From Escherichia phage vB_EcoM_ESCO25, in the sequence record OM386656.1: 64,000 bases of DNA. The stretch is one strand, 5' to 3'. This document shows, piece after piece, positions 8,237-50,102 of this stretch. How positions within the stretch are numbered: position 1 is the stretch's first letter; every line of letters begins with the position of its first letter. The notes under the pieces are model-generated. The model did no database searches. It saw only the letters and a list, made by a program, of their open reading frames with translations, and was not told where the DNA came from. The position numbers were made by a program, and so were the translations under genes.

Positions 8237-8237
8237 T

Positions 8238-10767: not shown

Positions 10768-10768
10768 A

Positions 10769-36439: not shown

Positions 36440-36619
36440 ATGGCACGTTTAGCAGATCATGAAATCTTTAAACCTATTCTGAACCACTATGATGAACTTA
36501 AAGCAGTGTTGGATTGTTATAGAGAGGATGAAGAACGTTTGGAAGTCAATCTTAAGATAGTTCTGATGAAAGCTTTTCAAGACGGGCAAGCTAAAGTTTT
36601 AGAAGGCATGAAAAAATGA
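36440..36619 (+). CDS. hypothetical small protein
   Basis: Start trimmed to MARLADH with RBS aaaggagaa. Confidence 0.45.
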   Translation: MARLADHEIFKPILNHYDELKAVLDCYREDEERLEVNLKIVLMKAFQDGQAKVLEGMKK

Positions 36620-37158
36620 GAATAACTGATGAATATGTATTCTTCTTTTCACATAAAGATGTGTTTAGTAATTGGTATATTGCACCCTTTACAGAAACTG
36701 AACCAGGTTACAATGAGACTTTCTGTTGTGTTGAGCAATATATGATGTGGCGTAAGGCTTTGCTGTTCAAGGATCATGCGATTGCAGCAGCTATCCTTGA
36801 TCACTCAACTATACGTGACAACGAGAGGAAACAAGCATACTACAAACGTATGGGTCGAGCGGTATCTGGTTTTAATAATGATATGTGGGAAGAGAACCGT
36901 GAGCGTATTGTTATGCGAGGCTTATGCTTGAAATATGTACAGAATCCAGATTTGTATGCAGACTTACACCTTTACCAATACAAAACGTTTGTTGAAGCAA
37001 GTCCTTACGATAAGGTTTACGGTATTGGAATGGGAATGTATGAACCAGGGGTGCTAAACCCTGCTACCTGGAAAGGGCAGAATCTTTTAGGAAAATATCA
37101 TAATAAACTGATCGAAATACTTTTCCCAGACAAAATACCGCAAAGACGATATTTGTGA
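36616..37158 (+). CDS. NADAR (YbiA-like) domain protein
   Basis: 180 aa; FFFSHKDVFSNWY, CVEQYMMWRKALLF, RERIVMRGLCLKYVQNPDL and VEASPYDKVYGIGMG match the NADAR/DUF1768 signature. Confidence 0.7.
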   Translation: MRITDEYVFFFSHKDVFSNWYIAPFTETEPGYNETFCCVEQYMMWRKALLFKDHAIAAAILDHSTIRDNERKQAYYKRMGRAVSGFNNDMWEENRERIVMRGLCLKYVQNPDLYADLHLYQYKTFVEASPYDKVYGIGMGMYEPGVLNPATWKGQNLLGKYHNKLIEILFPDKIPQRRYL

Positions 37159-37213
37159 TATTTTAACTTTTTTCATTTTTAGAACAAAGGTGTCACTTTG
37201 TAGCACAGAAATA

Positions 37214-37249
37214 AGGCTCCTACAGCACCGTAGAGAGCCTGTTATTTTG
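37214..37249 (+). terminator. intrinsic terminator after the NADAR gene
   Basis: Nested hairpin AGGCTC-[CTAC-agcacc-GTAG]-a-GAGCCT followed by GTTATTTTG. Confidence 0.55.
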
Positions 37250-37400
37250 TCCTATACAAACCCTTGTCTTTTTCAGTTTGCATCACTAGGATTCGATCTG
37301 AGTGGGTTCCTGAAGGTTTACCAATAAGATTAAAGGTTATATCAAATTCCCACTATCTTTTATCTCAAAAATCCCTCAAATTATTTAAACTTTTTAAGAA

Positions 37401-37578
37401 TTTACAAAAGTGAAAGTTGAAAACCAAAATTTAAAGTTTAGGAAAATTATCTTAAAATATTAGATACAAAACAAAACTCAAAAGTCAAGGAAAATTTTAA
37501 AAATTTTGCGCGCCCACAGTATTTAAAGTTTTTTTGCTTTTACAAAAATGAAAGTACAAAAGCAAAATTTAAAGTTTA
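37401..37578. repeat. two ~40-bp AT-rich direct repeats (37401-37440 and 37539-37578)
   Basis: TTTACAAAAGTGAAAGTTGAAAACCAAAATTTAAAGTTTA versus TTTACAAAAATGAAAGTACAAAAGCAAAATTTAAAGTTTA, about 34/40 identical. Confidence 0.6.
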
Positions 37579-37600
37579 CAAAAATTTTTATGCAGGTGAA

Positions 37601-37707
37601 AATGAGAAGAGTTCTCATATGGAAATGCAAATGATAATGATTCGCATTTAAGTTTATAAATGAGATTGATTCTTATTTAATAAGGTAAATGACAATCATT
37701 CTCATTT
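37601..37707. promoter_or_regulatory. array of four ~20-bp AT-rich palindromes at ~29-bp spacing (operator or Fur-box-like)
   Basis: AATGAGAAgagTTCTCAT (37601), AATGATAATGATTCGCATT (37629, contains GATAATGAT), AATGAGATTGATTCTTATT (37658), AATGACAATCATTCTCATT (37687). Confidence 0.45.
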
Positions 37708-37966
37708 AGAGAATGACGCGCAGGGGCGGTGTTTGTCTCGCGCTCCCGTGTCCCCTCGCCATGTAATAAGAATAACAGATCCAGCCAGGAAAGCAAGCGA
37801 TTATTTTATCTTTACATTTCTTTACAAATATATAGCACCCAGCCTACCGGCGATCAACCTTCCAACCAGTGCCCCCTGGTATGTTAGCCCCGCCTTTACG
37901 CCGTGGGGTGGCGCTTCCTCTTCTGTATGTAAAACAGTATAAGCCCGATCCCTGGGCTTGTCAAGA

Positions 37967-38233
37967 TTATTTTTTGTTTTCTTGCCAGGATAGGACACCT
38001 AACCAAAAATACATATCGCCCCGCGCCCCTGGTGGTATCTTGCTTTCCCCGCCGCCACTGCAAGCCCATAGATAACCATTTGCGAACGTATCAAAATGAT
38101 CTATCTCTTCCACCTTATGATCGCCCAGGTTGAGAACGGTTTCAACCTTTAAGCCCGTTGCGCTTGCTACCTGGTGCACCGTGCCGCCTTGCCAGCCCAA
38201 TGAGTGCATAAGGTGTAATGTAGTATTTGTCAT
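37967..38233 (-). CDS. possible hypothetical protein in an otherwise non-coding GC-rich island
   Basis: 88 aa ORF with weak RBS (aaggg); no recognisable promoter; low confidence. Confidence 0.3.
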   Translation of the reverse strand: MTNTTLHLMHSLGWQGGTVHQVASATGLKVETVLNLGDHKVEEIDHFDTFANGYLWACSGGGESKIPPGARGDMYFWLGVLSWQENKK

Positions 38234-38419
38234 GATATCGCCCTTTCTTTGTTGTGCGCCCTGGTTGGCGCGGTAGAAAGATAATAGCCCTTTTCTTTAT
38301 ATATAGCAAGCAAAAAGAAAATAAAAAAGATTGAAAAATGGTTGACGTTAACCAGGCGGCGGCGTAGTATTCATCTTGTAGGGCGGCAATGGTGCCGCTC
38401 ACTATTTGGAGTTAAGATC

Positions 38420-38617
38420 ATGGCAACATTGCACATTGTGGCGAAAGCTGGACAAATCAACGTAGTGGTAAACGGTTTTACTGAGTTCAGTCACCCCCAG
38501 GATGATCATGAAACGGTTTTATCTTTCATTGATTCCCTGTTAGAAATGGGAGTCATTACAGAAGACCAGCACGCTACAAAATGCAAGCGCGTTAATCAAA
38601 TCGCAGGAATAGAATAA
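38420..38617 (+). CDS. hypothetical small protein (cassette gene)
   Basis: Start set at ATG after cassette hairpin (MATLHIVAKAG...); the track ORF began upstream of the promoter. Confidence 0.5.
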   Translation: MATLHIVAKAGQINVVVNGFTEFSHPQDDHETVLSFIDSLLEMGVITEDQHATKCKRVNQIAGIE

Positions 38618-38707
38618 AAACTATTGACAACAAACAACAACCTGATAAGATGTATCACATAGGGCGGGAAGTGGTTTCCCGCTCGTAACAGAAGAGAGAT
38701 TATCATC

Positions 38708-38980
38708 ATGGCATCATATAGCGCAACAATGATCGTAGCTGGCACAACTGGTAAACCTATGAGCGGTGGCGGATCTTTCGCTAATATCAATATTGACGGG
38801 CGTTTATCCCTGGACGCAGCGATCGCTATTGCACGGGAAACATTTAAGAAAGAATGTAATTTCAACAAGCAAGATTATCTCGGTTTCGCTATTGAAAAAA
38901 CCGCGCGCTTTGTTGATTATAAAAGCCCGAAAATGGTTGATACTACACTAAAAGCGCAAGATGTAGCGTTTTTGCTTTAA
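38708..38980 (+). CDS. hypothetical small protein (cassette gene)
   Basis: 90 aa ORF after cassette; RBS agagag. Confidence 0.5.
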   Translation: MASYSATMIVAGTTGKPMSGGGSFANINIDGRLSLDAAIAIARETFKKECNFNKQDYLGFAIEKTARFVDYKSPKMVDTTLKAQDVAFLL

Positions 38981-39056
38981 GGCTTGACATTAACGAATAA
39001 TTTGTTAATATGTTACATAAAGCGGGAATAGTTCCCGCTATTTGTAAGGTGGTAGA

Positions 39057-39314
39057 ATGTTTTACATCAAATTAAAAGGTCACGTGATCGCGTTCAAAGA
39101 TAACGCTTTTTACAGATTAGCAAAATATGCGTTAATACATCCCCACTATGTTTATATAAGGAGGCGTGATGAAATAAATATCTTTGATCAAACAACATGC
39201 GAGAACATCGAGATCCGCAAGGTTGGCGTACGTGATTATCGTACATCTTTCTACCCTTGCAAGGATTCAGCAAGTCTTTTTAAAGTATGCCAATTGTTGA
39301 AAAAAGGTGGTTAA
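39057..39314 (+). CDS. hypothetical small protein (cassette gene)
   Basis: 85 aa ORF after cassette. Confidence 0.5.
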   Translation: MFYIKLKGHVIAFKDNAFYRLAKYALIHPHYVYIRRRDEINIFDQTTCENIEIRKVGVRDYRTSFYPCKDSASLFKVCQLLKKGG

Positions 39315-39873
39315 TATGGGCCGCGAATATGTGATCCAGTCTTGGGTAAAACATGAAGCAGATGATCCGCGCATCATTCCCGATCATCTTATCGATGAAT
39401 CCACGGGATATAGCGGTGAGCAAATAGGTAACAGATTAGCACGTAGTAACGGCAACGTAAAAGCGCGTTATGTGCGCCCTGGTTGGCTGGCAAATGGTAA
39501 CGCTGATTTATCCAGTGCGGAAGATGCGAGCGACGGCGCGAAAGATAATCCTTTGTACAAAGTTGATCCGGCTTTTCGTGTCCTGGATGAATACCCCAGC
39601 AAGATAGCGGCGCTCGATCAGGCCCTGGAAAGTAAGCGCATCACCTGGACCGCTTACAACATGGCAAAAAACGTACTTGATGGTAAATTGATTCAAGCTG
39701 AAAGAAAATTAGCCAAAATTGCAGCCATAGCCCAGGAGGAAGACGAGGAGACAACGGAAGAGGAAGAGTACGAAGAGATCCCGCCGTTGTTGTGTGTTGA
39801 TGCTTTTCCTGATTATCAGCCGACAGAGGAAGAAAAAAGGATCGCACTAGAAAACTTTGAAAATAGTCTTTGA
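39307..39873 (+). CDS. hypothetical protein, acidic C-terminus
   Basis: 188 aa ORF; EEDEETTEEEEYEE tail. Confidence 0.5.
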   Translation: MVNMGREYVIQSWVKHEADDPRIIPDHLIDESTGYSGEQIGNRLARSNGNVKARYVRPGWLANGNADLSSAEDASDGAKDNPLYKVDPAFRVLDEYPSKIAALDQALESKRITWTAYNMAKNVLDGKLIQAERKLAKIAAIAQEEDEETTEEEEYEEIPPLLCVDAFPDYQPTEEEKRIALENFENSL

Positions 39874-39955
39874 CATATCGCCGCCACTGGCATAATATTT
39901 ACCACGTAGGGCGGCAATGGTGCCGCTCATAGTGAAATTATGCAAGAGGCTTACA

Positions 39956-40051
39956 ATGATTAATAAAGAAAATAGCTTGACGGTTGGAACGATTAACGCT
40001 ATCATTCTAGCCGTTCCATTTTGGATTGTAGTAGCGGCTATTATTTTCTAA
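39956..40051 (+). CDS. hydrophobic micro-ORF (31 aa), not on ORF track
   Basis: MINKENSLTVGTINAIILAVPFWIVVAAIIF, downstream of cassette 39870..39927. Confidence 0.35.
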   Translation: MINKENSLTVGTINAIILAVPFWIVVAAIIF

Positions 40052-40141
40052 AAATATTCTTGACAACGTTTTTTAATCTGATAAGATGTATCACATAGGG
40101 CGGCGGAATACTTCCCCGCCAAAACAAAAAAGGGTAACACA

Positions 40142-40504
40142 ATGAGCAAGCAAATCAATACTATCATGTTAAACCTGGTATCCTTCCGCGATGATATGAA
40201 AAATTTACCACGTGAAACGGTTGATATTCATGTTTCAGCTTATCGCGCCCTTATTGACATGTTACCGCTAAAACGTGATCAACATGCCGCTAACATGATG
40301 CTTAATGCTATGCTTAAAAAGATGATTCAAACGGATCTCATCCTGGCGTATGAGTATCAAGGGCGCTTATATGCTACTTACAACAAGGCGGTACCTGGTC
40401 TGGGAAGTACCGAAGAGTTGCACGGCTTAAACCTGGATCAGAACACTTGGGATAGTATGCGCCGCGTTATGGTATGGGCCGAAAGCGGTAAAATTTACGA
40501 ATAA
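40142..40504 (+). CDS. hypothetical protein (cassette gene)
   Basis: 120 aa ORF after cassette. Confidence 0.5.
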   Translation: MSKQINTIMLNLVSFRDDMKNLPRETVDIHVSAYRALIDMLPLKRDQHAANMMLNAMLKKMIQTDLILAYEYQGRLYATYNKAVPGLGSTEELHGLNLDQNTWDSMRRVMVWAESGKIYE

Positions 40505-40586
40505 AACGGTTGACACTGTTTAAAATTCTGGTATAGTTTATCACGTAGGGCGGCAATGGTGCCGCCAACAATAAAAGGTTAACATC

Positions 40587-40766
40587 ATGACTATCATTGC
40601 AAAAACTGAGATTATAGGTTTAGATTCGATCCTCCTGGCTTATGAGGAAACTTTAAAAATGTATGTAGTGACCTATGGTGATTATGTGCGTGAATACGAA
40701 TACATTGATCTTGCTTTCGAATGTTACATTCGCCAGGTCAATAAAGCCTATAACGATTATCGTTAA
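40587..40766 (+). CDS. hypothetical small protein (59 aa), not on ORF track
   Basis: MTIIAKTEIIGLDSILLAYEETLKMYVVTYGDYVREYEYIDLAFECYIRQVNKAYNDYR after cassette 40510..40566. Confidence 0.45.
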   Translation: MTIIAKTEIIGLDSILLAYEETLKMYVVTYGDYVREYEYIDLAFECYIRQVNKAYNDYR

Positions 40767-40863
40767 AAGTTTTAGTCTTATACTATTGACAATGAGTGAT
40801 AGTATAAGCATAATAACTTTTATCGGGAATACTTCCCACTAACCAAAAAAAGAGAGTAATATC

Positions 40864-41229
40864 ATGGCTATTAATATCAATGTTTCCTCTTATGCTACCC
40901 TGGCTGACACGGCTAAAATTGAATTATCCAGCATTGAGGCGGTGCATATTAGCGCCCGTCGTTGGTTTCAACAGTCCTACGGTAACACATATTTTTCTTT
41001 AATGGTTGACGTTGAGATCGGCGGTAAACTGATCGAGGTGGTTAACGTTCCGTTTCAATATGGTTATGGTGATCATTTTGATACCGTCGCCCTGGAAGAA
41101 TTTAGCAAGGTTATTAATATGGAAGGTAAAGAGTTTTCACGCGGCGCGTATCTTTCCCGTTTTTGCCGTGACAATGGGATCACTGTATACAGTCATGCAA
41201 GCGATGTTAAACGTAAAAAAGATTTATAA
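40864..41229 (+). CDS. hypothetical protein (cassette gene)
   Basis: 121 aa ORF after cassette. Confidence 0.5.
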   Translation: MAININVSSYATLADTAKIELSSIEAVHISARRWFQQSYGNTYFSLMVDVEIGGKLIEVVNVPFQYGYGDHFDTVALEEFSKVINMEGKEFSRGAYLSRFCRDNGITVYSHASDVKRKKDL

Positions 41230-41321
41230 AAAGCATTGACAGCACGAATAAAAAGAGTAAACTGTATTACATCAAGGCGGCGGAATGGTCCACCGCCTAA
41301 CAAAGAGAAGAGGAAAACATC

Positions 41322-41489
41322 ATGATCACTTTCGCTACCCGTGAAGCCGCTCGCAACGTTGCCCGTAAAGTTAACGCCGCCAACCTGGGCGCTACGCTTA
41401 AAGCCCCTGTAAAAGATGAATCAGGAAAATGGATCTTCCCTGGTCTGCGTCATGCTGACAAGTTAGGTACTTTAAGCCTTAAAAAATAA
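41322..41489 (+). CDS. hypothetical small basic protein (55 aa), not on ORF track
   Basis: MITFATREAARNVARKVNAANLGATLKAPVKDESGKWIFPGLRHADKLGTLSLKK; shares the first 15 coding nt and RBS context with the next gene. Confidence 0.45.
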   Translation: MITFATREAARNVARKVNAANLGATLKAPVKDESGKWIFPGLRHADKLGTLSLKK

Positions 41490-41563
41490 TCGTTGACTTT
41501 TCGTTATAGCGCCTTATAATGGGCGCTATAGAGAAGAGAAACCACTACTAACAAGGAAACATC

Positions 41564-41785
41564 ATGATCACTTTCGCTATTGTCGCCGTTGTCGCTGGTC
41601 AGGTTTACATAAACGATACATTCACCACAGAAGACAAGGCCGCAGGAGACATAACCGCCGTTTACAATGAGTGCAAGGCAGTAGAAAGGATGTTAGCGCC
41701 TTGTATGCTAATGAGTGAACGCCAGGACGGGATAACAGTATTTACTAACATTGAAACAGGGTACCAAATGGTAGTAACAAAATAA
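41564..41785 (+). CDS. hypothetical small protein (cassette gene)
   Basis: 73 aa ORF; starts MITFA, identical 5' junction to the previous gene. Confidence 0.5.
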   Translation: MITFAIVAVVAGQVYINDTFTTEDKAAGDITAVYNECKAVERMLAPCMLMSERQDGITVFTNIETGYQMVVTK

Positions 41786-41864
41786 AGCTTGACACGGATT
41801 TAATTTTTAGTAAACTGTTACACGTAGGGCGGGAATAGTTCCCGCTCAAAAAGAGAGAAAGACC

Positions 41865-42218
41865 ATGAAAGCACAAAATGCAATTAAAGAGTACATCCTT
41901 GCCGCTATCGATTTTAATGATTACGGTATTACAACCGAAAAAGAGAAGATCGCGGAATTGATGCGCCGTTTTAATTCCGAGTACTGGTACCCTGATAACC
42001 AATCACGTTTTAATTATAGTATTGTTAAAGCACTTGCATCATGGTTACAAGGCTTGCCATCAGATATCAATATCGCTTTCGAATATTGGGAAATTGATCG
42101 CCTGTTAACATCCTGGGGATACATTAAAGAGAATAGCAGCGATGATAAAATCCAACGAGAAAGGGAAAATTATTGGCTTTATATTGCAGGCGTGATCCTT
42201 GCTTGCTCTTATGAATGA
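41865..42218 (+). CDS. hypothetical protein (cassette gene)
   Basis: 117 aa ORF. Confidence 0.5.
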   Translation: MKAQNAIKEYILAAIDFNDYGITTEKEKIAELMRRFNSEYWYPDNQSRFNYSIVKALASWLQGLPSDINIAFEYWEIDRLLTSWGYIKENSSDDKIQRERENYWLYIAGVILACSYE

Positions 42219-42297
42219 TAAACCTTGACAATTTTACAAAACAGTTTAAATTAACAATATAGCGGCAATGGTGCCGCTCATATGAAGAGGAAACAAA

Positions 42298-42444
42298 ATG
42301 AATACATCTAATCGCGCAGAAAAAATTCAATCTTCCAAGATCCGCAAGGCCTGGAACGAGGAAGTGATCCGCAAAGGCGACAAGCGCAATAAAACAAAGC
42401 GTGGGAAGAGTGACAAATATAATTGGATGGATTTAGAGGATTAA
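42298..42444 (+). CDS. hypothetical small basic protein (48 aa), not on ORF track
   Basis: MNTSNRAEKIQSSKIRKAWNEEVIRKGDKRNKTKRGKSDKYNWMDLED; followed by a terminator. Confidence 0.4.
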   Translation: MNTSNRAEKIQSSKIRKAWNEEVIRKGDKRNKTKRGKSDKYNWMDLED

Positions 42445-42452
42445 CATAACAA

Positions 42453-42479
42453 GGGGCGCACCAAGCGCCCTTTCTTTTT
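42453..42479 (+). terminator. intrinsic terminator (copy 1 of a repeated terminator)
   Basis: GGGGCGCACCAAGCGCCC followed by TTTCTTTTT; identical to the copy at 48656. Confidence 0.65.
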
Positions 42480-42500
42480 ACATGTAGAGGATAAACAAAG

Positions 42501-42686
42501 ATGACTTTAAGCGAGCTTAAAACAGCCTACAACGCAACGTTAAAAATAGCCGTGCGTTACCGTGACGAATACGGTTTTATTGCGCAGGGCGTGATCCTGG
42601 GCTTTTCTGACGATGGTTTGATCTATGTTGATGCACATCACAATAAGGTTAAACCTGAAAACGTCATTAGCATAAAATATCTTTAA
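42501..42686 (+). CDS. hypothetical small protein
   Basis: 61 aa ORF; RBS agagga. Confidence 0.45.
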   Translation: MTLSELKTAYNATLKIAVRYRDEYGFIAQGVILGFSDDGLIYVDAHHNKVKPENVISIKYL

Positions 42687-42770
42687 AAGTGGTTGACACC
42701 ATAACCGGACCTGTTAAACTGTATTACATCAGGCGGGGAATAGTTCCCACCATACAAAAAGGTAAATATT

Positions 42771-42977
42771 ATGATCACCGCAAAACAAGAAAAAATCATT
42801 ATCGACGTTGCAGCCGTTGCTGCTATTGCTATTATTGGATCTTATTATGACACCGCGCGTCCTTCCTCCTTGCATGAGGTCGCCGCCGTTGCATCAGTTG
42901 GCGTACTGTTTTACGTTGGTAAACGCTATTTATCACCAATGATTAACAAGCTGACACCGTGGAAAAATAAAGGTTGA
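42771..42977 (+). CDS. small membrane protein (cassette gene)
   Basis: 68 aa; hydrophobic IIIDVAAVAAIAIIGSYY. Confidence 0.5.
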   Translation: MITAKQEKIIIDVAAVAAIAIIGSYYDTARPSSLHEVAAVASVGVLFYVGKRYLSPMINKLTPWKNKG

Positions 42978-43048
42978 TCCTGTTTTATATTGTGTTATAG
43001 TTATCGTGTAGGGCGGCAATGGTGCCGCGCCCTTTTGAGGATGCAATC

Positions 43049-43333
43049 ATGAGTAAAGCTAACACCGTGCTAATGTTTTCCCTGATTAATGATTCCGCTT
43101 ACTTGTCCAACATGACGCAGGAGGGTAACACATTAACGGCAACATTCACCAATAAGCTTGACCGGGTGATCATCGTCTCACTGAAAACAGTTAGTAAAGG
43201 CTTTTACTCGTTAGCTTATCATTGGATCACCGATACCGATGAGACAAGCCAGGACTATAGCACCCCTTTCCCTGAATCAATGGCACGGGAGGTCATCGCC
43301 GCCGTTGTAAATGATGGTTTGTTTACTGCATAA
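43049..43333 (+). CDS. hypothetical protein (cassette gene)
   Basis: Start trimmed to MSKANTVLMF. Confidence 0.5.
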   Translation: MSKANTVLMFSLINDSAYLSNMTQEGNTLTATFTNKLDRVIIVSLKTVSKGFYSLAYHWITDTDETSQDYSTPFPESMAREVIAAVVNDGLFTA

Positions 43334-43431
43334 AATAATTTAGAAAAAGGCTTGCAATCATTTTGAGATAGTGTATATTTAATTCATAGGGCGGCGGGAA
43401 TAGTTCCCAAAGCAAACGAGAGGATTACACG

Positions 43432-43551
43432 ATGAGCAAGTACACAGTAGAATACACGGTAGAGAATCCGGCAGTATCCGAAGGTAAAAAGATGACATTT
43501 GCCATCAGTATAATCGCTTTCGTTGTCACTATCTTATCAATCATCTTATAA
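43432..43551 (+). CDS. hydrophobic micro-ORF (39 aa), not on ORF track
   Basis: MSKYTVEYTVENPAVSEGKKMTFAISIIAFVVTILSIIL after cassette 43352..43408. Confidence 0.4.
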   Translation: MSKYTVEYTVENPAVSEGKKMTFAISIIAFVVTILSIIL

Positions 43552-43561
43552 GGTGCACACC

Positions 43562-43723
43562 ATGAAAACAACAGATATTATCAAAGAGATCGCCCTTGCC
43601 GCTGACGTTGAGATCGAGGAAGTGATCGCGCTCAATCTTACAGAAAACGATCTGCGCAACTATGAAGCGGAAAGCGTGAAAGCAAGTGGCGCGGTCCTGG
43701 CATATAATCCGGCTAACAAATAG
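43562..43723 (+). CDS. hypothetical small protein
   Basis: Start trimmed to MKTTDIIKEI. Confidence 0.45.
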   Translation: MKTTDIIKEIALAADVEIEEVIALNLTENDLRNYEAESVKASGAVLAYNPANK

Positions 43724-43803
43724 TTTGACAAGCTGAATCAACCTGATAAGATGTATCACATAGGGGCGACAAGCGCCCCGCCTAACAGAAGAGAGAAAAA
43801 ATC

Positions 43804-44082
43804 ATGACCATCGTTAAATTAACAACCGAAGAAATGAAAACAATGTTAACCACTAATTTACAAAATTGGAAAATTGGTGTTGACGTTGAAACAGTGTGCA
43901 AGTTGAACGACAAACTAACACCGGACGACATTGAAACGATCATCCGTGCAGATTTCTATGATGCTTTATACGATGATTCCACAGTCCTTGAAACGATGTT
44001 GGATAACGCTTGGATCAATCCCGATTTGGCGGCTTATGGTCATCTTGCCTTTGAAGCCATCCATAATGTTTATAATCGTTAA
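43804..44082 (+). CDS. hypothetical protein (cassette gene)
   Basis: 92 aa ORF. Confidence 0.5.
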   Translation: MTIVKLTTEEMKTMLTTNLQNWKIGVDVETVCKLNDKLTPDDIETIIRADFYDALYDDSTVLETMLDNAWINPDLAAYGHLAFEAIHNVYNR

Positions 44083-44092
44083 GGGGGATAAC

Positions 44093-44203
44093 ATGAATCC
44101 GAAAGATATGCAAGCATGGAAAGGGTACGACGATCTAAGCGCCTTGCGCAATAAGTCAAGCCGTAACCTTAGACGGTTGGAAGCAAAGAAAAAGAAAAAA
44201 TAG
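44093..44203 (+). CDS. hypothetical small basic protein (36 aa)
   Basis: MNPKDMQAWKGYDDLSALRNKSSRNLRRLEAKKKKK; RBS aaggggga. Confidence 0.4.
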   Translation: MNPKDMQAWKGYDDLSALRNKSSRNLRRLEAKKKKK

Positions 44204-44281
44204 TTTGACAAGTCCGCCTAGTCTGATAATATGTATCTTGTAGGGCGGCAATGGTGCCGCTCACAAGAAGAGAGAAAAATC

Positions 44282-44566
44282 ATGAAAATCACAAAAAGCC
44301 TGACTAATTATGCAGCACGTCGCGGATTATGTTTAACCGTTGAAAACTTAGGGAAAGAAGACTTTTTGTGTTTTTGGGAGCTTGAAAATGATTGCGAGTG
44401 GATGTTTTCTTATTCTATCTGCGAAGATCAAAACGGTTGTTTGTTAACCTGGCGCGGTAATATCTATTTACCGGAAGAAATTAAAGAAGAGTTACCAGGT
44501 ACGATCATGACAGAGAGACAGCTTAAGGAAGTGATCAATTTTGTAGGGCAAAACATTAAAAAATAA
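44282..44566 (+). CDS. hypothetical protein (cassette gene)
   Basis: Start trimmed to MKITKSLTNY. Confidence 0.5.
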   Translation: MKITKSLTNYAARRGLCLTVENLGKEDFLCFWELENDCEWMFSYSICEDQNGCLLTWRGNIYLPEEIKEELPGTIMTERQLKEVINFVGQNIKK

Positions 44567-44651
44567 TTTGACAGTAGGCAAACAACGTAGTAAAGTTTAT
44601 TACATAGGGCGGCGGAATGGTCCACCGCTCACAACAGAAGAGAAACAAATC

Positions 44652-44822
44652 ATGATCCCGACTATGTTTTATGTATCGCGCAAAGGTCATAATATTTTTT
44701 GGTCTGAAGATTTAAATGAAGCCATGACGTTTGCCCGTGATCGTGTCGCTATCGGTGGCGTTAACATCACCGTAACCGATGAAAACGGCATTGAATACTA
44801 TAACGGCAACGATGAAGAGTAA
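44652..44822 (+). CDS. hypothetical small protein (cassette gene)
   Basis: Start trimmed to MIPTMFYVSRKG. Confidence 0.5.
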   Translation: MIPTMFYVSRKGHNIFWSEDLNEAMTFARDRVAIGGVNITVTDENGIEYYNGNDEE

Positions 44823-44866
44823 TCAACAAGGCGGGATTAATCCCGCCTGTATTAAAGGGTAATATA

Positions 44867-45013
44867 ATGAAAACTTTCAACGCAACAGCCTCGACAATTG
44901 GTTATATTATTACAGTGCAAGCCGTGGATCTGGTAGCAGCAACAAACAAGATTAAAAGAATGATCCCGATAGGCAGTGAATTTTCCGTTTGGGAAGTAAA
45001 AAATAAATCTTGA
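44867..45013 (+). CDS. hypothetical small protein (48 aa), not on ORF track
   Basis: MKTFNATASTIGYIITVQAVDLVAATNKIKRMIPIGSEFSVWEVKNKS; preceded by hairpin GGCGGGATTAATCCCGCC. Confidence 0.4.
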   Translation: MKTFNATASTIGYIITVQAVDLVAATNKIKRMIPIGSEFSVWEVKNKS

Positions 45014-45089
45014 CGATAATTTGTTATCTGATAGAATGTATTTCGTAGGGCGGGGCAATAAGGCAACGCCCATTAATGAGGGTAGAATC

Positions 45090-45194
45090 ATGTTAGAGAA
45101 AATTTTCACGGTTGTAGTAGTTGGCCTGGCGTTATCGGTTGGAGTGGTTGCAACTATGGCTAACATGATCCTATCTTCCCACGGTATCGGTTAA
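45090..45194 (+). CDS. hydrophobic micro-ORF (34 aa), not on ORF track
   Basis: MLEKIFTVVVVGLALSVGVVATMANMILSSHGIG after cassette 45010..45070. Confidence 0.4.
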   Translation: MLEKIFTVVVVGLALSVGVVATMANMILSSHGIG

Positions 45195-45195
45195 G

Positions 45196-45420
45196 GTGAA
45201 ACAAATGATCACGAACAAAACAGGCAAAACGGAATTTTTACGCGGCTTACAAGTTGGTAAGCCTGAGATCTGGCATTGCACGAAGTCCGCGCATAATGAA
45301 ATGAAAGATTTCACCGCTACTTTACAACGTGTTAAAATATCTATCACACAGAAAAAAGCCTTGTTGGTAGTAGAAAACGAGATCCCGCAAACTATTATTA
45401 TTGTCGAGCGTACAGCATGA
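45196..45420 (+). CDS. hypothetical small protein
   Basis: 74 aa ORF (GTG start; ATG at 45205 is an alternative). Confidence 0.45.
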   Translation: MKQMITNKTGKTEFLRGLQVGKPEIWHCTKSAHNEMKDFTATLQRVKISITQKKALLVVENEIPQTIIIVERTA

Positions 45421-45803
45421 AAACAGAAATCATTAACGAAATCATCAACGGCTATAAAGAAGCCTTTATTTTTGCTGAATCAGCAAGGGATCATGAAGGT
45501 AATTTTATTGATAACTTAGACGATTATGATTTTTCTCCTAGCGCGGACGAACGGATCGCCCAGGATGTAACAGCCTTTATTAATGCTAATCTTGCCGCTA
45601 TCTCTGAGGCAATGAGCGACGGCGCAACAGCCAACCAGATCGGGAATGATTTACATTTTACCCGTAACAGTCACGGCGTAGGCTTTTGGGATCGCCCTGA
45701 AATATACACCACTAACACGGCGAACCGCCTAACCAATGCAGCTAAGTTTATGCCGAACGTGTCGGCTTACATTGGTGAAGATAATTTGATTTATATTGAA
45801 TAA
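45417..45803 (+). CDS. hypothetical protein
   Basis: 128 aa ORF; ATGA overlap. Confidence 0.5.
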   Translation: MKTEIINEIINGYKEAFIFAESARDHEGNFIDNLDDYDFSPSADERIAQDVTAFINANLAAISEAMSDGATANQIGNDLHFTRNSHGVGFWDRPEIYTTNTANRLTNAAKFMPNVSAYIGEDNLIYIE

Positions 45804-45884
45804 AAAGTATTGACACAGATCGCCAGTGTGCTAATATTTACCACGTAGGGCGGCAATGGTGCCGCCGATAATGAGGAAAGTAAA

Positions 45885-46184
45885 ATGGAAACTATCGCTA
45901 TTGTTACCGTAGAAAAACTGGTTGTTGGTGATGTATTCGCGTTAATGGTGCCTAACAGCAGCAAACTGGGTGCTTATGAAGTAATGGATCATAAAAATGA
46001 ATCATTTGGCGACGGTTGCACAATGGCGGTAAAATCTTTAAAGGATGGAATCATCCGCCAGGCTAACTGGCACAAAGGGAATCAAGTCGGTTTAATATCA
46101 GCTAATTTCTTGCCAGAAGAGCAAACGTTAGACCAACTATCAGGCGGTAAGACGTTAGCCGAACTACTGGAAACAGCGATCTAA
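45885..46184 (+). CDS. hypothetical protein (cassette gene)
   Basis: 99 aa ORF. Confidence 0.5.
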   Translation: METIAIVTVEKLVVGDVFALMVPNSSKLGAYEVMDHKNESFGDGCTMAVKSLKDGIIRQANWHKGNQVGLISANFLPEEQTLDQLSGGKTLAELLETAI

Positions 46185-46228
46185 TCAACAAAGGGGCGGC
46201 AACGCCCCACATCAGAAAGGAAAAGATT

Positions 46229-46465
46229 ATGAGTATTGCAACAGTATTAAACGCCGTTAAAACCGCTGAATCATCCGGCTTGCATGTTGAGCTTATAGAT
46301 CAACCAGGTGGCGATCTCCTTGTCCAGGTTTACCCGCCGAAAGTAGGGGATGATTATTATTGGGCTTATTCTGATACGTTCGAACAAGTAGACACGAAAG
46401 CGATCACGGCTTTTATTTTAAAAGCTATTGAAGAAAATAACTTTCATCATAACATCAATCAATAA
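46229..46465 (+). CDS. hypothetical protein
   Basis: 78 aa ORF after hairpin GGGGCGGCAACGCCCC. Confidence 0.5.
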   Translation: MSIATVLNAVKTAESSGLHVELIDQPGGDLLVQVYPPKVGDDYYWAYSDTFEQVDTKAITAFILKAIEENNFHHNINQ

Positions 46466-46519
46466 ACCATAAGCGGGGCGGTAACGCCCCATTAAACGCA
46501 ATAGGAAGAGGATAGGCGC

Positions 46520-46804
46520 ATGAAAAAGATGATCGCAGTAGTTGCCCTGGTTGTTGGTATTAACGCGCCTGTAATGGCGAAAGAGTTGCCAGAATCCATC
46601 ACGTTAACCGATATTAACGCAGTGAACCGGATCGGCGTTAATTATCGCCTATACCTTGCCGCTAAAACTTTCCAGGACGGCACAACAGAGTACTACGGAT
46701 TCGAGGGTGTCCGGTGCGGTGAGCTTGCACGCGACCTTAAGGAAGATCCAGACCTTGAGGCCATACCGATGACCGTAAACGGTAAAGCCCAGGTAAACCG
46801 CTAA
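46520..46804 (+). CDS. secreted protein (signal peptide)
   Basis: MKKMIAVVALVVGINAPVMA signal peptide. Confidence 0.55.
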   Translation: MKKMIAVVALVVGINAPVMAKELPESITLTDINAVNRIGVNYRLYLAAKTFQDGTTEYYGFEGVRCGELARDLKEDPDLEAIPMTVNGKAQVNR

Positions 46805-46806
46805 CC

Positions 46807-46941
46807 ATGAGAAAGGTAATCATCACAATGGGGATCGTAGTAGCAACGCTGGCGCTTATCCCCTTCATGGTTGAATATGTGCTGATTAATGTTGTCCTGG
46901 TAGTCAGTGACCTATTGGAAACGGTTGGCACCTGGTTTTAA
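46807..46941 (+). CDS. hydrophobic micro-ORF (44 aa), not on ORF track
   Basis: MRKVIITMGIVVATLALIPFMVEYVLINVVLVVSDLLETVGTWF. Confidence 0.4.
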   Translation: MRKVIITMGIVVATLALIPFMVEYVLINVVLVVSDLLETVGTWF

Positions 46942-46953
46942 GGAGTAATAAAA

Positions 46954-47145
46954 ATGAATGCAGAACAAGTTAGAAAGGTATTAGCAGCGTTGCGGTATCA
47001 CAACCATAGCAAGGTAAAAAATGATCCTGATTATGTGGATTCAAGCCTGGAAGAAGACACATTGCAAGCTATAAGCCATATGCAAGAATTGTTTAAGCGT
47101 ATGACAGAGAAGAACAGATCTGATTATATAGGTGACGAGATCTAA
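46954..47145 (+). CDS. hypothetical small protein
   Basis: 63 aa ORF; RBS aaggag. Confidence 0.5.
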   Translation: MNAEQVRKVLAALRYHNHSKVKNDPDYVDSSLEEDTLQAISHMQELFKRMTEKNRSDYIGDEI

Positions 47146-47154
47146 TCTTTACAA

Positions 47155-47186
47155 AAACAGGGCTTGCTTTTGTCCTGTTTTTTGTT
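47155..47186 (+). terminator. intrinsic terminator
   Basis: AACAGG-gcttgcttttgt-CCTGTT followed by TTTTTG. Confidence 0.5.
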
Positions 47187-47399
47187 ATGCTTATTGAACG
47201 GGCGGCACTTGGGAGCAGGGGAAGATAATCACCGGAAGACCCCGCTATATATTGATAGCTAATACCTATCAAACAACAAAACATCAAAGAGATAAACTAT
47301 CAAATCTTTACAATCCCACCTATTGACACCGGATCACGCTTACATTATTATTTATCACGTAGGGCGGGAATGTTTCCCACCTGATTTAGGAGTCATATC

Positions 47400-47633
47400 A
47401 TGATCGAACAAATTAAAAGCACTACACCAAATGTTAACGGTAATGTTTCTCACTTTATCAGGGATAATGAAAGAGGTACACCGTACGCCGCCGTAACCGT
47501 TCAACCTAACGGGGATTATTGGTTTACCGTGTACGGATCTTACTCTTTTGGACGTTCGGCACATGATAAGATCTTGCAAGTGGTTAAGCCTACTGGGAAG
47601 AATATCACAGCAGAAAAATTTTATAAAAAATAA
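47400..47633 (+). CDS. hypothetical protein (cassette gene)
   Basis: 77 aa ORF; RBS aggag. Confidence 0.5.
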   Translation: MIEQIKSTTPNVNGNVSHFIRDNERGTPYAAVTVQPNGDYWFTVYGSYSFGRSAHDKILQVVKPTGKNITAEKFYKK

Positions 47634-47711
47634 CTTGCTTTATAGCTCCTGTTAACTTATAGTTATTGCGTAGGGCGAGCAATACAGCAAGCCCACAAAG
47701 AGGAAAATAAA

Positions 47712-48080: not shown

Positions 48081-48090
48081 GATTATACAA

Positions 48091-48112
48091 GGGGCGCACT
48101 AAGCGCCCTTTA
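48091..48112 (+). terminator. stem-loop/terminator, near-copy of the 42453 element
   Basis: GGGGCGCACTAAGCGCCC followed by TTTAACG (weak T-tract). Confidence 0.45.
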
Positions 48113-48220
48113 ACGTAAAGAAATGTAAATAATGCGCTATCCCCTATTGACAGGGGATCGGCGTTATATTATATTTAACTCACTGGCAGCAAACAACGAA
48201 ACGAAACAAAGGACAACATC

Positions 48221-48640: not shown

Positions 48641-48655
48641 TCAACAACAAAACAA

Positions 48656-48888: not shown

Positions 48889-48906
48889 AATGATAACCAT
48901 TATCAT
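48889..48906. promoter_or_regulatory. Fur-box-like palindrome
   Basis: AATGATAACCATTATCAT, close to the Fur consensus core AATGATAATCATTATC. Confidence 0.4.
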
Positions 48907-50102
48907 CTACCCATGATTATCTATGCAATATAAGCGCATAATTATAATGTTGATAATAGTTCGCAACAACTAACCAACAAACAACATAAAACAATAAGCA
49001 AACTAATCATAATCAAAGGAATAATAGCAAGATGATTGATAACGACAAACAATCAAACCATGATGAATACTAAGCAAAATAACGATAACACGACAAAACA
49101 ACCAACTAACGAACAATAACAAACGAAACCATTAAAATAATAACTATTAGCAAAATAGTGCCTGAATGAAATCATTACAAAACGAATCATTCACAGAGTC
49201 ATCATTAGCACGCTATGCCGGACACATAGCGAGCTAATAATAAGCCAACTACACCCCAACAATCATAACCATCGGTGATGGTTATTTCTTGTTACTGCGT
49301 AGCTTGCAATAATTGCAAGCGTAATGACGCTTACACTTATTGCGCTGGCTTATTATTAGCATTATATGTAATTACCAAGATCATAACATTAGCGCAATAA
49401 CAATAATCATTGTAATAATTATGTAAGGAAATAATTAACATGGCAATAATTATGGGGGCGAAATGTTACCGCCACAGGCGGGAATGTTGAGCAAGTTCTC
49501 TTAAACGTAAATAAAATCAGAAAATTCTTGATTTATTTTAGTTTTTATGTTAATAAACGTTTAAATAATAATCATTCTCATATAAATAATAGTCCGTCTG
49601 TCATGAGCGGCATTAGTTGACATTGTTCCGTCATATGATGAAGTTGCCAAGCCATTGATAAATAAGTGTTTGTGTGATTTATAATCAGGTGGCCCACCTT
49701 GTCGCTATGTTGGCATGAGCCTTGCATAAGTCATTGAATACGAATGATAATTATTCTCATTCGCATGATATTTGGGAATTGTCGCTGCGTGGACCTGACG
49801 GCCCGAAAATTCGCGTTAAGCACTTCTTACGTATGCGCCATGATTTTTGCCATATCATATTGATTCTATTAGATATTCTTGCCATGATTGCCATGAAACA
49901 GGGTGTCCCGAAATAATCTCTCCCCGTAGATATTTTGGGTTACTTTTTATACAAGAGCGGGGTGTCAAAAATAATCGGTATATATGGGATAATTGATAGG
50001 AATCCCCTATGATAATTCGATTGTAATTCCCTAAGATTGATCGTATGATGTTGGTGATTGATGATTGCCATGAAAGATGGCTAACGATGAGAGGAGATTG
50101 TC

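What the first reader, a model, noticed from the sequence alone, without database searches (positions are those of the whole stretch)
37601..37707. Four periodic AT-rich palindromes with a Fur-box-like core in the intergenic region ahead of the cassette array
Sites at 37601, 37629, 37658 and 37687 share AATGA-N9/10-TCATT symmetry at about 29-bp spacing; one contains GATAATGAT, the core of the enterobacterial Fur box. Related single sites occur at 48889-48906 (AATGATAACCATTATCAT, a near-consensus match), 49560-49580 and 49741-49765. They may be binding sites for host Fur (iron-responsive control, or titration of Fur) or for a phage regulator, or iteron-like replication elements.
Basis: partly seen in the sequence, partly recalled or inferred. 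Interest (0 to 1): 0.55.

Follow-up and report, generated by a model that had tools for sequence, protein, structure and literature searches.

The report
Host Fur-box array in coliphage DNA
Four evenly spaced palindromes in a non-coding stretch of this virulent E. coli phage score as well as the bacterium's best binding sites for its iron-sensing repressor Fur, and the same sites recur in the phage's terminal repeat and in phage T5's unexplained injection-stop region, so several phage families appear to recruit this host protein.

Summary
Window 37600-37707 holds four 21-bp palindromes (consensus AAATGAGAATnATTCTCATTT) at exactly 29-bp pitch, where chance expects 0.02 matches.

A weight matrix from 15 footprinted or gel-shifted E. 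coli Fur sites scores the four sites at 17.0, 24.6, 20.7 and 23.6 bits. The proven E. coli sites score 18.0-28.5 leave-one-out. Shuffles of the AT-rich spacer give 0.007 such sites. Four more sites (16.9-29.0 bits) lie at 48889-49761, and two of these sit inside the inferred 328-bp terminal repeat.

Half-sites drift independently, as in a dimer-protein site and not a hairpin. No phage Fur homologue or shared regulator was found.

The array is kept in 17 of 18 related loci, at a fixed distance from a conserved GC-rich element. T5's annotated palindromes E, G and I are the same motif, and lambda carries one 34 bp from its right end.

Fur binding is strongly inferred (about 0.8) but untested. What it does for the phage (iron-dependent barrier, architectural factor or Fur sink) is open. 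I judge this a new variant of a known kind, of moderately high interest.

The parts
37601..37619 (.). Fur-type 9-1-9 site 1 (AATGAGAAGAGTTCTCATA), the weakest of the array
   Evidence: 17.0 bits with the E. coli Fur matrix; member of the 29-bp repeat family D1
37630..37648 (.). Fur-type site 2 (AATGATAATGATTCGCATT). It carries an overlapping weaker site 6 bp upstream (37624-37642, 12.4 bits), giving a classical F-F-x-R hexamer layout
   Evidence: 24.6 bits. The identical 19-mer is present in a T5-like phage (L002 2509) and in tuntematon
37659..37677 (.). Fur-type site 3 (AATGAGATTGATTCTTATT)
   Evidence: 20.7 bits. The homologous site in tuntematon is AATGAGAATGATTATCATT, 28.8 bits
37688..37706 (.). 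Fur-type site 4 (AATGACAATCATTCTCATT), the proximal site
   Evidence: 23.6 bits. A site is kept at -184 to -197 from the conserved GC-rich block in 17 of 18 loci of two subfamilies
37377..37586 (+). AT-rich 138-bp direct repeat pair (72-nt copies at 37377-37448 and 37515-37586, 82% identical) flanking the array. It holds weak sigma70-like hexamer pairs (TTTACA-18-CAAAAT)
   Evidence: Other genera have different repeats at the same place
37715..37935 (.). Conserved GC-rich non-coding element next to the array. It has invariant blocks CCGGCGAT, ACCTT and TAGCCCCGCCTTT.CGCCGTGGGGTGGCG, and a tandem TCTTTACA motif
   Evidence: Alignment of 18 loci from Stephanstirmvirinae and Vequintavirinae. No Rfam hit, no tRNA, no compensatory pairs found
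37936..37964 (-). Leftward sigma70-like promoter (TTGACA-17-TATACT, 11 of 12) overlapping a hairpin that follows the stop of the leftward gene
   Evidence: Equivalent hexamers are seen by eye in CR9 and Mydo
37967..38233 (-). Lone leftward 88-aa gene of unknown function (phrog_19316)
   Evidence: Annotated in tuntematon, phiWec179, phi92 and JLBYU50. Not found near the sites in CR9, Mydo, PVP-SE1-like or T5-like loci
48889..48907 (.). Fur-type site AATGATAACCATTATCATC in the second long non-coding region
   Evidence: 23.5 bits
49136..49154 (.). Weaker Fur-type site AATAATAACTATTAGCAAA
   Evidence: 16.9 bits
49490..49817 (.). Inferred 328-bp direct terminal repeat (the physical genome ends)
   Evidence: The Schickermooser record starts at window 49490. 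Its authors report a 328-bp terminal repeat (PMC6563267). The WPEC6 record ends at window 49817. BME3 has an annotated 342-bp DTR covering the homologous DNA
49564..49582 (.). Fur-type site AATAATAATCATTCTCATA inside the DTR, 18 of 19 identical to the E. coli ryhB operator
   Evidence: 23.7 bits. The REC record starts on its first base
49743..49761 (.). Fur-type site AATGATAATTATTCTCATT inside the DTR, identical to the E. coli gpmA operator except at the centre base
   Evidence: 29.0 bits, equal to the best E. coli site. The ESCO5 record starts on its first base

Best explanation
The four palindromes are operators for the host's ferric uptake regulator, Fur. Each is a single-dimer 9-1-9 site.

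Because they do not overlap and sit 29 bp apart, iron-loaded Fur could occupy all four at once and coat about 110 bp. Fur is known to extend along DNA from strong sites.

The array lies in a roughly 1.1-kb non-coding hub:
- Upstream, the rightward operon ends with a NADAR gene at 37158.
- Next come AT-rich direct repeats, then the Fur array, then a conserved GC-rich element.
- Beyond these are a leftward promoter and small gene, followed by the rightward small-gene array.

My preferred reading is that Fur occupancy forms an iron-dependent nucleoprotein block at this junction. The block would gate transcription (or other DNA traffic) passing between the GC-rich element or leftward unit and the AT-rich repeats or upstream operon. 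It would be relieved when iron is scarce and Fur leaves the DNA.

The same motif in the terminal repeat and elsewhere makes this phage carry about 8 strong Fur sites per unit genome (10 per virion DNA).

Shown:
- sequence, spacing and statistics;
- equivalence to proven Fur operators;
- conservation across phage families;
- half-site behaviour typical of a protein site.

Inferred:
- that Fur binds, about 0.8;
- that the sites are kept by selection for Fur binding, about 0.7;
- that the effect is a local iron-dependent gate, about 0.35.
For: Fur matrix. It was built from 15 footprinted or gel-shifted E. coli K-12 sites, using coordinates from Chen et al. 2007 Table 4 and sequences.
- Array sites score 17.0, 24.6, 20.7 and 23.6 bits. 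The other window sites score 16.9-29.0. Proven sites score 18.0-28.5 leave-one-out. The next best hit in 64 kb is 13.5.
- Shuffles give 0.007 expected against 4 seen in the spacer, and 0.38 against 7 in the window.
- The matrix is specific: in 33 kb of E. coli DNA, every hit of 15 bits or more lies in a Fur cluster or footprint listed by Chen et al. 2007. Held-out footprinted operators (fepB 16.1, tonB 9.1, fur 6.5) score below the phage sites.

Protein site, not hairpin.
- Palindromes collected without reference to Fur give a frequency matrix correlating r = 0.92 with the E. coli matrix.
- In 54 distinct phage sites, departures from consensus are asymmetric 116 times and symmetric 18 times. 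Of the 18, 17 are a G preferred at position -4. The E. coli sites show the same pattern, 39 asymmetric against 1 symmetric.

No phage-encoded binder found.
- No Fur homologue in these phage groups.
- No genes shared with the T5 terminal region.

Conservation and context.
- One to four sites of at least 16 bits are kept in 17 of 18 loci, with the proximal site at a fixed distance from the GC-rich block. The 29-bp register recurs in Vequintavirinae.
- Site number is kept but spacing changes in phiWec179 and phi92.
- Promoter-like hexamer pairs are enriched in 37000-38800, 13 against 4.6 +/- 2.0.
Against: - No binding data exist.
- None of the four sites overlaps a convincing or conserved sigma70 -35/-10 pair, which is how Fur usually represses (my reading). 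A classical operator role is therefore not shown.
- E. coli high-affinity operators are usually clusters of sites overlapping at 6-bp steps. Here only site 2 has such a partner.
- The phage sites prefer G where E. coli sites prefer T at position -4 (0.55 against 0.23). This could mean a slightly different binder.
- The other locations of the motif (terminal repeat, lambda cos, T5 first-step-transfer boundary) point to DNA-end or packaging biology more than to transcription.
- Transcript ends and starts in this region are unknown.
Confidence: 0.35

Rival explanations
1. Fur binds, but as an architectural host factor for DNA transactions rather than for transcription. The sites would mark or organise special non-coding DNA, as IHF does at lambda cos. 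Candidates are genome ends, packaging or cutting sites, DNA-entry pausing, end protection, or an origin-like hub.
For: - Two of the strongest sites lie inside the 328-bp terminal repeat, 74 and 56 bp from its boundaries. The homologous pair lies in the annotated DTR of BME3.
- Lambda has the gel-shifted nohA-type Fur site at 48450-48468, 34 bp from its right cohesive end.
- In T5 the motif is palindromes E, G and I (22.0, 28.8, 23.3 bits). These sit beside DnaA boxes and just left of the 7.9% nick, at the first-step-transfer boundary.
- The array here is 12.1 kb, about 8% of the genome, from the right terminal-repeat boundary.
- The proximal site keeps a fixed distance to a conserved non-coding element.
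- No conserved promoter overlaps the sites.
Against: - Fur has no established architectural role in packaging, injection or replication (my knowledge).
- Nothing shows that region 37.6 kb is a site of cutting, pausing or initiation.
- No DnaA boxes are present here, unlike T5.
- A cytoplasmic protein bound to DNA that has already entered cannot by itself stop further entry.
- The 8% match may be coincidence.
Confidence: 0.25
2. Fur sink. The sites exist to soak up Fur as phage DNA replicates. This would derepress the host Fur regulon (iron uptake, RyhB, the Mn-dependent reductase NrdHIEF, Suf) to the phage's benefit. Position in the genome would be secondary.
For: - About 8 high-affinity sites per unit genome, 10 per virion DNA, times hundreds of replicating copies, approaches the Fur pool. 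That pool is about 5,000-10,000 molecules per cell (from memory, Zheng et al. 1999).
- The Fur titration assay shows that multicopy Fur boxes do derepress Fur targets.
- The sites are discrete, non-overlapping single-dimer sites, spaced so that all can be filled at once. They lie outside promoters.
- Number and strength are conserved while spacing drifts (23-40 bp in phi92 and phiWec179).
- Clusters of such sites are common in viral contigs: 42 of 119 loci have 3 or more.
Against: - Lambda and some Vequintavirinae carry a single site, too few to titrate.
- The fixed position relative to the GC-rich element and placement in the terminal repeat are not needed for a sink.
- Any benefit within a short lytic cycle is unproven.
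- Derepressing receptors such as FhuA would be harmful to progeny of T5-like phages.
Confidence: 0.15
3. The palindromes bind a phage-encoded dimeric protein (a regulator, or a terminase or nicking component) and only resemble Fur boxes.
For: - The phage sites show a systematic G at position -4 (GAGAAT/ATTCTC).
- Two GenBank records start exactly on the first base of the two terminal-repeat sites, as if something cuts or nicks there.
- A small gene with a helix-turn-helix-like stretch (by eye only; no Pfam hit) lies 260 bp away.
Against: - The same motif occurs in Demerecviridae, Stephanstirmvirinae, Vequintavirinae and lambdoid phages. The first three share no detectable protein near the sites. 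None encodes a Fur homologue.
- Sites are identical or nearly identical to host operators proven to bind Fur.
- G at -4 also occurs in proven sites (oppA, fecI, fecA).
- The terminal-repeat boundaries themselves are not at the palindromes.
Confidence: 0.12
4. Structural DNA or RNA hairpins (terminators, cruciforms, RNase sites) or replication iterons, with the likeness to Fur boxes incidental.
For: - The strand folds better than shuffles (z = -5.1).
- A weak leftward hairpin with a U-rich tail overlaps site 4.
- AT-rich direct repeats lie next door.
Against: - There are no pairing-preserving double changes apart from the preferred G/C at +/-4.
- Stems are AT-rich with a loop of at most 3 nt and no proper U tract.
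- The sites are dyads at 29-bp pitch (2.76 helical turns), not directional iterons.
- No DnaA boxes are present.
- The good fold score is a trivial consequence of palindromy.
Confidence: 0.05

Closest known systems
E. coli Fur operators (Fur boxes), single-dimer 9-1-9 model of Chen et al. 2007; e.g. gpmA, ryhB, yoeA, oppA, fecI
   Same: - Same 19-bp dyad AATGAtAATnATTaTCATT.
- Same informative positions: G at -6, A at -5/-3/-2, T at -7/-1.
- Same tolerance at -4 and at the centre.
- Scores are equal to the best host sites. Site 49743 equals gpmA apart from the centre base, and site 49564 equals ryhB apart from one base.
   Different: - They sit in a virulent phage, not at iron-regulated host promoters.
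- They are discrete sites at 29-bp pitch, not clusters overlapping by 6 bp.
- They do not overlap a recognisable promoter.
- G is preferred over T at -4.
- Binding is untested.
Phage T5 injection-stop region (Repeat Region 3 of the left terminal repeat): palindromes E, G, I and direct repeat C copies (Wang et al. 2005 annotation; Davison 2020 preprint 10.1101/866236)
   Same: - blastn matches at 81-87% identity over 55-59 bp, with a shared stretch GAAATGCAAATGATAATGATTCGCATTTAA.
- T5 palindromes E, G and I score 22.0, 28.8 and 23.3 bits.
- Sites are arrayed at about 29-35 bp in non-coding DNA next to other direct repeats.
   Different: - In T5 they lie inside the 10-kb terminal repeat at the first-step-transfer boundary, next to 7-8 DnaA boxes and a LexA-box-like palindrome. 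None of these is present here.
- Their function in T5 is unknown. The preprint suggests restriction-like cleavage sites and does not mention Fur.
Fur site at the cos region of lambda and the Qin/DLP12 prophages (upstream of nohA/nohB)
   Same: It is a strong Fur box in phage non-coding DNA close to a physical genome end. The nohA copy was gel-shifted by Fur, and the identical 19-mer is at lambda 48450-48468.
   Different: - A single site in a temperate phage.
- 34 bp from the cohesive end rather than in a direct terminal repeat or an internal array.
- No function assigned in the library I could search.
Host transcription-factor boxes in lytic phages, e.g. CtrA boxes in alphaproteobacterial phages (PMC9437464)
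   Same: Conserved binding sites for a host global regulator, carried by phages that do not encode the regulator.
   Different: - A different regulator and host signal (cell cycle rather than iron).
- CtrA boxes are described as controlling phage promoters. No such promoter link is shown here.

Membership tests
Fur box (E. coli Fur operator) | Sequence scores within the range of experimentally proven Fur sites under a Fur weight matrix, and above composition-matched chance | tested here: met
   Sites score 17.0-29.0 bits against 18.0-28.5 leave-one-out for 15 proven sites. Shuffles give 0.007 expected against 4 observed
Fur box (E. coli Fur operator) | 9-1-9 / 7-1-7 dyad with independent half-sites for a dimer | tested here: met
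   Consensus AATGAGAATnATTCTCATT. Matrix correlation with E. coli sites r = 0.92. There are 116 asymmetric against 18 symmetric deviations
Fur box (E. coli Fur operator) | Clusters of overlapping sites at 6-bp (or 3-bp) register, typical of E. coli high-affinity operators | tested here: not met
   Only site 2 has a partner 6 bp away (12.4 bits). The others are isolated and 29 bp apart. Single 7-1-7 sites can still bind with high affinity according to Chen et al.
Fur box (E. coli Fur operator) | Overlap with the -35/-10 of the regulated promoter | tested here: not met
   No conserved sigma70 hexamer pair overlaps the four sites. Inter-site spacers are not conserved
Fur box (E. coli Fur operator) | Metal-dependent binding by Fur in vitro or in vivo, and iron- or fur-dependent expression | not testable with these tools
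   Needs gel shift or footprint, a Fur titration assay, ChIP and expression assays
Replication iterons | Directional direct repeats at helical pitch, next to an AT-rich unwinding element, DnaA boxes and a cognate initiator gene | tested here: not met
   The sites are palindromes at 29 bp (2.76 turns). There are no DnaA boxes in the non-coding regions, and no initiator gene was identified nearby. Adjacent AT-rich direct repeats do exist
Operators of a phage-encoded repressor | Dyad sites co-inherited with a cognate DNA-binding gene and restricted to related phages | tested here: not met
   The motif is shared by unrelated phage families that have no shared gene near the sites. The neighbouring 88-aa gene is absent from CR9, Mydo, PVP-SE1-like and T5-like loci
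T5 injection-stop-signal repeat region | Sequence homology to T5 palindromes and direct repeat C | tested here: met
T5 injection-stop-signal repeat region | Location inside a long terminal repeat at the first-step-transfer boundary, with paired DnaA boxes | tested here: not met
   The array lies 11.8 kb from a 328-bp DTR (12.1 kb from its far, right-hand boundary), with no DnaA boxes. Two-step DNA transfer is not known for this phage group
Intrinsic terminator / structural hairpin | GC-rich stem followed by a U tract, with pairing kept by compensatory change | tested here: not met
   Stems are AT-rich. Only one weak leftward candidate overlaps site 4. No compensatory changes were found
CRP or Zur sites (other AAATG...CATTT dyads) | CRP: TGTGA-N6-TCACA. 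Zur: GAAATGTTATAnTATAACATTTC (both recalled from memory) | tested here: not met
   By direct reading, the phage core is TGAGA-N5-TCTCA, one base shorter than CRP. The inner five bases AGAAT differ from Zur's TTATA. No matrix test was run

The most novel reading that the evidence does not exclude
Fur is a hijacked host factor for phage DNA ends and DNA delivery.
- Strong Fur boxes sit within about 35-75 bp of the physical ends of lambda and of phAPEC8/phi92-like phages, and at the 7.9% first-step-transfer boundary of T5.
- The internal array studied here lies 8% from the right end of its genome, bounding a block of small early genes.
- The array could therefore be the myophage counterpart of the T5 injection-stop or first-step region. 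In that case Fur (together with DnaA and LexA-type sites in T5) would help pause, anchor or protect incoming DNA.
- If so, the 50-year-old T5 injection-stop problem becomes testable in fur mutants.
Probability: 0.1. Interest if true: 0.85.

Novelty: new variant of a known kind. Interest (0 to 1): 0.62.

Why it matters
Fur boxes are textbook elements of bacterial iron regulation. They are not known as conserved features of virulent phage genomes.

Here they appear as strong, conserved sites in at least three unrelated enterobacterial phage lineages. They always lie in non-coding DNA with special roles:
- the terminal repeat;
- the region next to a conserved non-coding element;
- T5's injection-stop region;
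- lambda cos.

If Fur really binds, three consequences follow:
1. Phage development, DNA handling or host iron physiology during infection would be coupled to iron status. That matters for phage therapy in iron-limited host tissues.
2. The unexplained palindromes of the T5 injection-stop signal acquire a concrete candidate ligand.
3. Replicating phage DNA may act as a natural Fur titrator.

All three can be tested with standard genetics.

Tried and rejected
- Rfam (E up to 1) on 30-55 kb and ARAGORN on the window found nothing.
- DnaA-box and LexA-box searches in the window found nothing in the non-coding regions.
- Pfam and PHROG scans of six neighbouring ORFs found only a NADAR domain. The 88-aa leftward gene has no known domain. 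It is not co-conserved with the sites, so I rejected it as the binder.
- tblastn of E. coli Fur against 50,697 phage records found no homologue in Phapecoctavirus, Justusliebigvirus, Vequintavirinae or T5-like phages.
- tblastx of T5 1-12000 and two T5-like loci against the window matched only the palindromes.
- A first IMG/VR scan with a 14-mer from the GC-rich element was too unspecific: only 5 of about 120 loci were true. It was repeated with a 23-base pattern.
- RNAalifold on the GC-rich element, both strands, gave only invariant helices and 0 compensatory pairs, so I make no RNA-gene claim.
- I first suspected that the terminal-repeat boundaries coincide with the Fur sites, because the REC and ESCO5 records start on them. 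I rejected this: the Schickermooser start, the WPEC6 end and the published 328-bp repeat put the boundaries at 49490 and 49817.
- Literature searches for Fur boxes in T5 or other lytic phages, or at cos, found no prior description in the open-access library. Subscription papers are not covered.
- The supplement of Chen et al. with the 24 site sequences is not held. I therefore rebuilt the matrix from genome coordinates, using 15 of the sites.

Full report
**Identity of the window.** A 3-kb query around the finding is 99.7% identical to Escherichia phage vB_EcoM_REC. It is 95-99% identical to dozens of Phapecoctavirus (phAPEC8-like, Stephanstirmvirinae) virulent myophages.

**Observation.** The sequence at 37600-37707 contains four 21-bp palindromes with starts exactly 29 bp apart. 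Their consensus is AAATGAGAATnATTCTCATTT. Allowing 3 mismatches, the 64-kb window has six matches: the four plus 49563-49583 and 49742-49762. Chance expects 0.02.

The array lies in a 570-bp AT-rich gap. Upstream is a rightward NADAR-domain gene (36616-37158). Downstream the order is a GC-rich stretch, a lone leftward 88-aa gene (37967-38233), and only then the rightward small genes from 38342. 'Ahead of the cassette array' is therefore only loosely right.

**The Fur test.**
- Chen et al. 2007 (PMC2189734) describe the single-dimer Fur site as a 19-bp 9-1-9 dyad. They give genome coordinates of footprinted or gel-shifted sites.
- I fetched those stretches from NC_000913.3 and read the 19-mers at the published coordinates. 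From 15 experimentally supported sites I built a symmetrised matrix. Its consensus is AATGATAATnATTATCATT.
- Leave-one-out scores of the E. coli sites are 18.0-28.5 bits (mean 21.9).
- The four array sites score 17.0, 24.6, 20.7 and 23.6 bits.
- Four more sites in the second long non-coding region score 23.5 (48889), 16.9 (49136), 23.7 (49564) and 29.0 (49743).
- The next best hit anywhere in the window is 13.5.
- Dinucleotide-preserving shuffles of the 572-bp spacer give 0.007 sites of at least 16.9 bits, against 4 seen. Shuffles of the whole window give 0.38, against 7.
- The matrix is specific. In 33 kb of E. coli DNA, every hit of 15 bits or more lies in a Fur cluster or footprint listed by Chen et al. 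2007. Held-out footprinted operators (fepB 16.1, tonB 9.1, fur 6.5) score below the phage sites.
- Site 49743 is the gpmA operator with a different centre base. Site 49564 is the ryhB operator with one flank change. The phage half-site GAGAAT/ATTCTC occurs in the proven oppA, fecI, gpmA, ryhB and fhuA sites.

**Protein site or hairpin, host or phage protein.**
- Across 54 distinct phage sites of at least 17 bits, the two halves depart from consensus independently. There are 116 asymmetric positions and 18 symmetric ones, and 17 of the 18 are simply a preferred G at -4. The E. coli sites show the same pattern, 39 against 1. That is the behaviour of a dimer-binding site, not of a base-paired stem. 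The good folding z-score (-5.1) is a trivial result of palindromy.
- Palindromes collected without any reference to Fur give a frequency matrix that correlates r = 0.92 with the E. coli Fur matrix.
- No Fur homologue is encoded by these phage groups.
- The adjacent 88-aa gene is missing from several lineages that keep the sites.
- T5-like phages, which carry the same sites, share no gene with this window.

**Conservation.**
- blastn of the spacer finds the palindrome block in Phapecoctavirus, in Justusliebigvirus (phi92), in Vequintavirinae (phages of Cronobacter, Proteus, Klebsiella, Salmonella and Erwinia) and in T5-like Demerecviridae.
- I anchored 18 loci on an invariant GC-rich block. Of these, 17 have a strong Fur-type site 184-197 bp from the anchor. 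Many have further sites in 29-bp register, at -191/-220/-249.
- phiWec179 and phi92 keep 3-5 strong sites but with spacings from 17 to 51 bp. Number and strength are therefore better conserved than the pitch. At 2.76 helical turns, the pitch puts successive dimers on different faces of the helix.

**T5 link.**
- In a T5-like phage and in T5 itself the matches fall in the inner part of the left terminal repeat.
- T5's annotated palindromes E, G and I (direct repeat C copies 1, 3 and 4) score 22.0, 28.8 and 23.3 bits. They lie just left of the 'major nick 1, 7.9%' feature.
- This is Repeat Region 3, the candidate injection-stop signal. Davison's comparative preprint describes it as conserved but unexplained. 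The preprint discusses DnaA boxes and possible cleavage at the palindromes, and never mentions Fur.

**Terminal repeat and lambda.**
- The Schickermooser record starts at window 49490. Its authors report a 328-bp terminal repeat. The WPEC6 record ends at window 49817. The repeat is therefore 49490-49817, and it contains the 23.7- and 29.0-bit sites.
- The phi92-like phage BME3 has an annotated 342-bp repeat holding the homologous pair, at 29.0 and 20.5 bits.
- Chen et al. list strong Fur sites upstream of the prophage genes nohA and nohB. The nohA site sits 35 bp from the cohesive-end sequence. The identical 19-mer is at lambda 48450-48468, 34 bp from the right end.
- Strong Fur boxes close to physical DNA ends thus occur in two unrelated phage types.

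**Surroundings of the array.**
- On one side are genus-specific AT-rich direct repeats. Here they form a 138-bp repeat pair at 37377-37586.
- On the other side is a conserved GC-rich element of about 220 bp, followed by a conserved leftward promoter-like site overlapping a hairpin.
- The element is not coding, because its indels are not multiples of three. It has no Rfam match and no compensatory pairs under RNAalifold. It remains unexplained.
- No conserved promoter overlaps the Fur sites, so a classical promoter-occlusion role is not shown.

**Mechanism.** I consider Fur binding about 0.8 likely, and selection for Fur binding about 0.7 likely. For the consequence I rank the options as follows:
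- an iron-dependent nucleoprotein barrier or gate at this junction (0.35);
- an architectural role in DNA-end or DNA-delivery biology (0.25);
- a Fur sink (0.15);
- a phage protein with Fur-like specificity (0.12);
- hairpins or iterons (0.05).

**Comparison with what is known, and novelty.** The element type is known. The novel aspects are its conserved deployment in virulent phages, its discrete phased arrangement, and its association with the terminal repeat and with T5's injection-stop region. Searches of the open-access library found no prior description. Subscription literature could not be searched.

**Caveats.**
- My matrix uses 15 of the 24 published sites, and I chose registers with a seed. 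All registers agree with the published coordinates to within 0-3 bp.
- Only 64 kb of the genome was scanned.
- The terminal-repeat coordinates are inferred from record ends plus published lengths.
- The Fur copy number, the CRP and Zur consensus sequences and the lambda cos anatomy are from memory.

Noticed in passing
window 37715-37935: A conserved GC-rich non-coding element lies next to the array. It is shared by Stephanstirmvirinae and Vequintavirinae. It has invariant blocks (CCGGCGAT, ACCTT, and TAGCCCCGCCTTT.CGCCGTGGGGTGGCG), a hairpin of variable sequence, and a tandem TCTTTACA motif at 11-bp pitch. There is no ORF, no Rfam hit and no compensatory pairs, so its function is unknown.
   Followed up: partly
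window 49490-49817: This is the inferred 328-bp direct terminal repeat, meaning the physical genome ends lie inside this window. The inference rests on the Schickermooser record start, the WPEC6 record end and the published repeat length.
   Followed up: partly
window 49564 and 49743: The GenBank records of REC and ESCO5 begin exactly on the first base of the two Fur-type 19-mers inside the terminal repeat, which are not the repeat boundaries. This could reflect site-specific nicks or cuts beside the palindromes, or an assembly artefact.
   Followed up: partly
L156 (T5 AY587007) 9330-9349; L002 about 2655-2675: T5 'palindrome D', TACTGTATAAATATACAGTA, is a near-perfect LexA-box-like CTGT-N8-ACAG dyad. 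It sits between the DnaA boxes and an isolated perfect Fur-type site. The T5 injection-stop region thus looks like a cluster of host DNA-binding-protein sites.
   Followed up: no
L155 (lambda NC_001416) 48450-48468: Lambda carries the nohA-type Fur site GATGATAATCATTATCACT 34 bp from its right cohesive end. It scores 18.7 bits with nohA left out of the matrix.
   Followed up: partly
IMG/VR loci L157-L275, e.g. L227 1810-1888: More than 120 viral contigs hold an exact AATGAGAATnATTCTCATT. My rough estimate is that chance would give single digits. Of 119 loci, 42 have 3 or more strong Fur-type sites. L227 has three perfect copies at 30-bp pitch. Some of these contigs may be host or prophage DNA.
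   Followed up: partly
window 37377-37586: The 138-bp AT-rich direct repeat contains TTTACAAAAGTGAAA. This resembles the TTTAAAAAGTGAAATG linker between Fur-type sites in T5-like phages. Other genera have different repeats at the same position.
   Followed up: partly
window 48700-49130: This non-coding stretch has an odd A/C-rich, G-poor strand composition (for example AACAACCAACAACAAACCATCAAAAAC) between the last small gene and the terminal repeat.
   Followed up: no
window 36616-37158: The gene upstream of the array is annotated 'GTP cyclohydrolase II' in several GenBank records, but it matches only the NADAR domain (PF08719, E = 3e-35).
   Followed up: partly
window 37601-49817: The array lies 12.1 kb, about 8% of a 150-kb genome, from the right terminal-repeat boundary. 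It bounds a block of about 30 small rightward genes. The T5 Fur-type palindromes lie at 7.9% of that genome.
   Followed up: no
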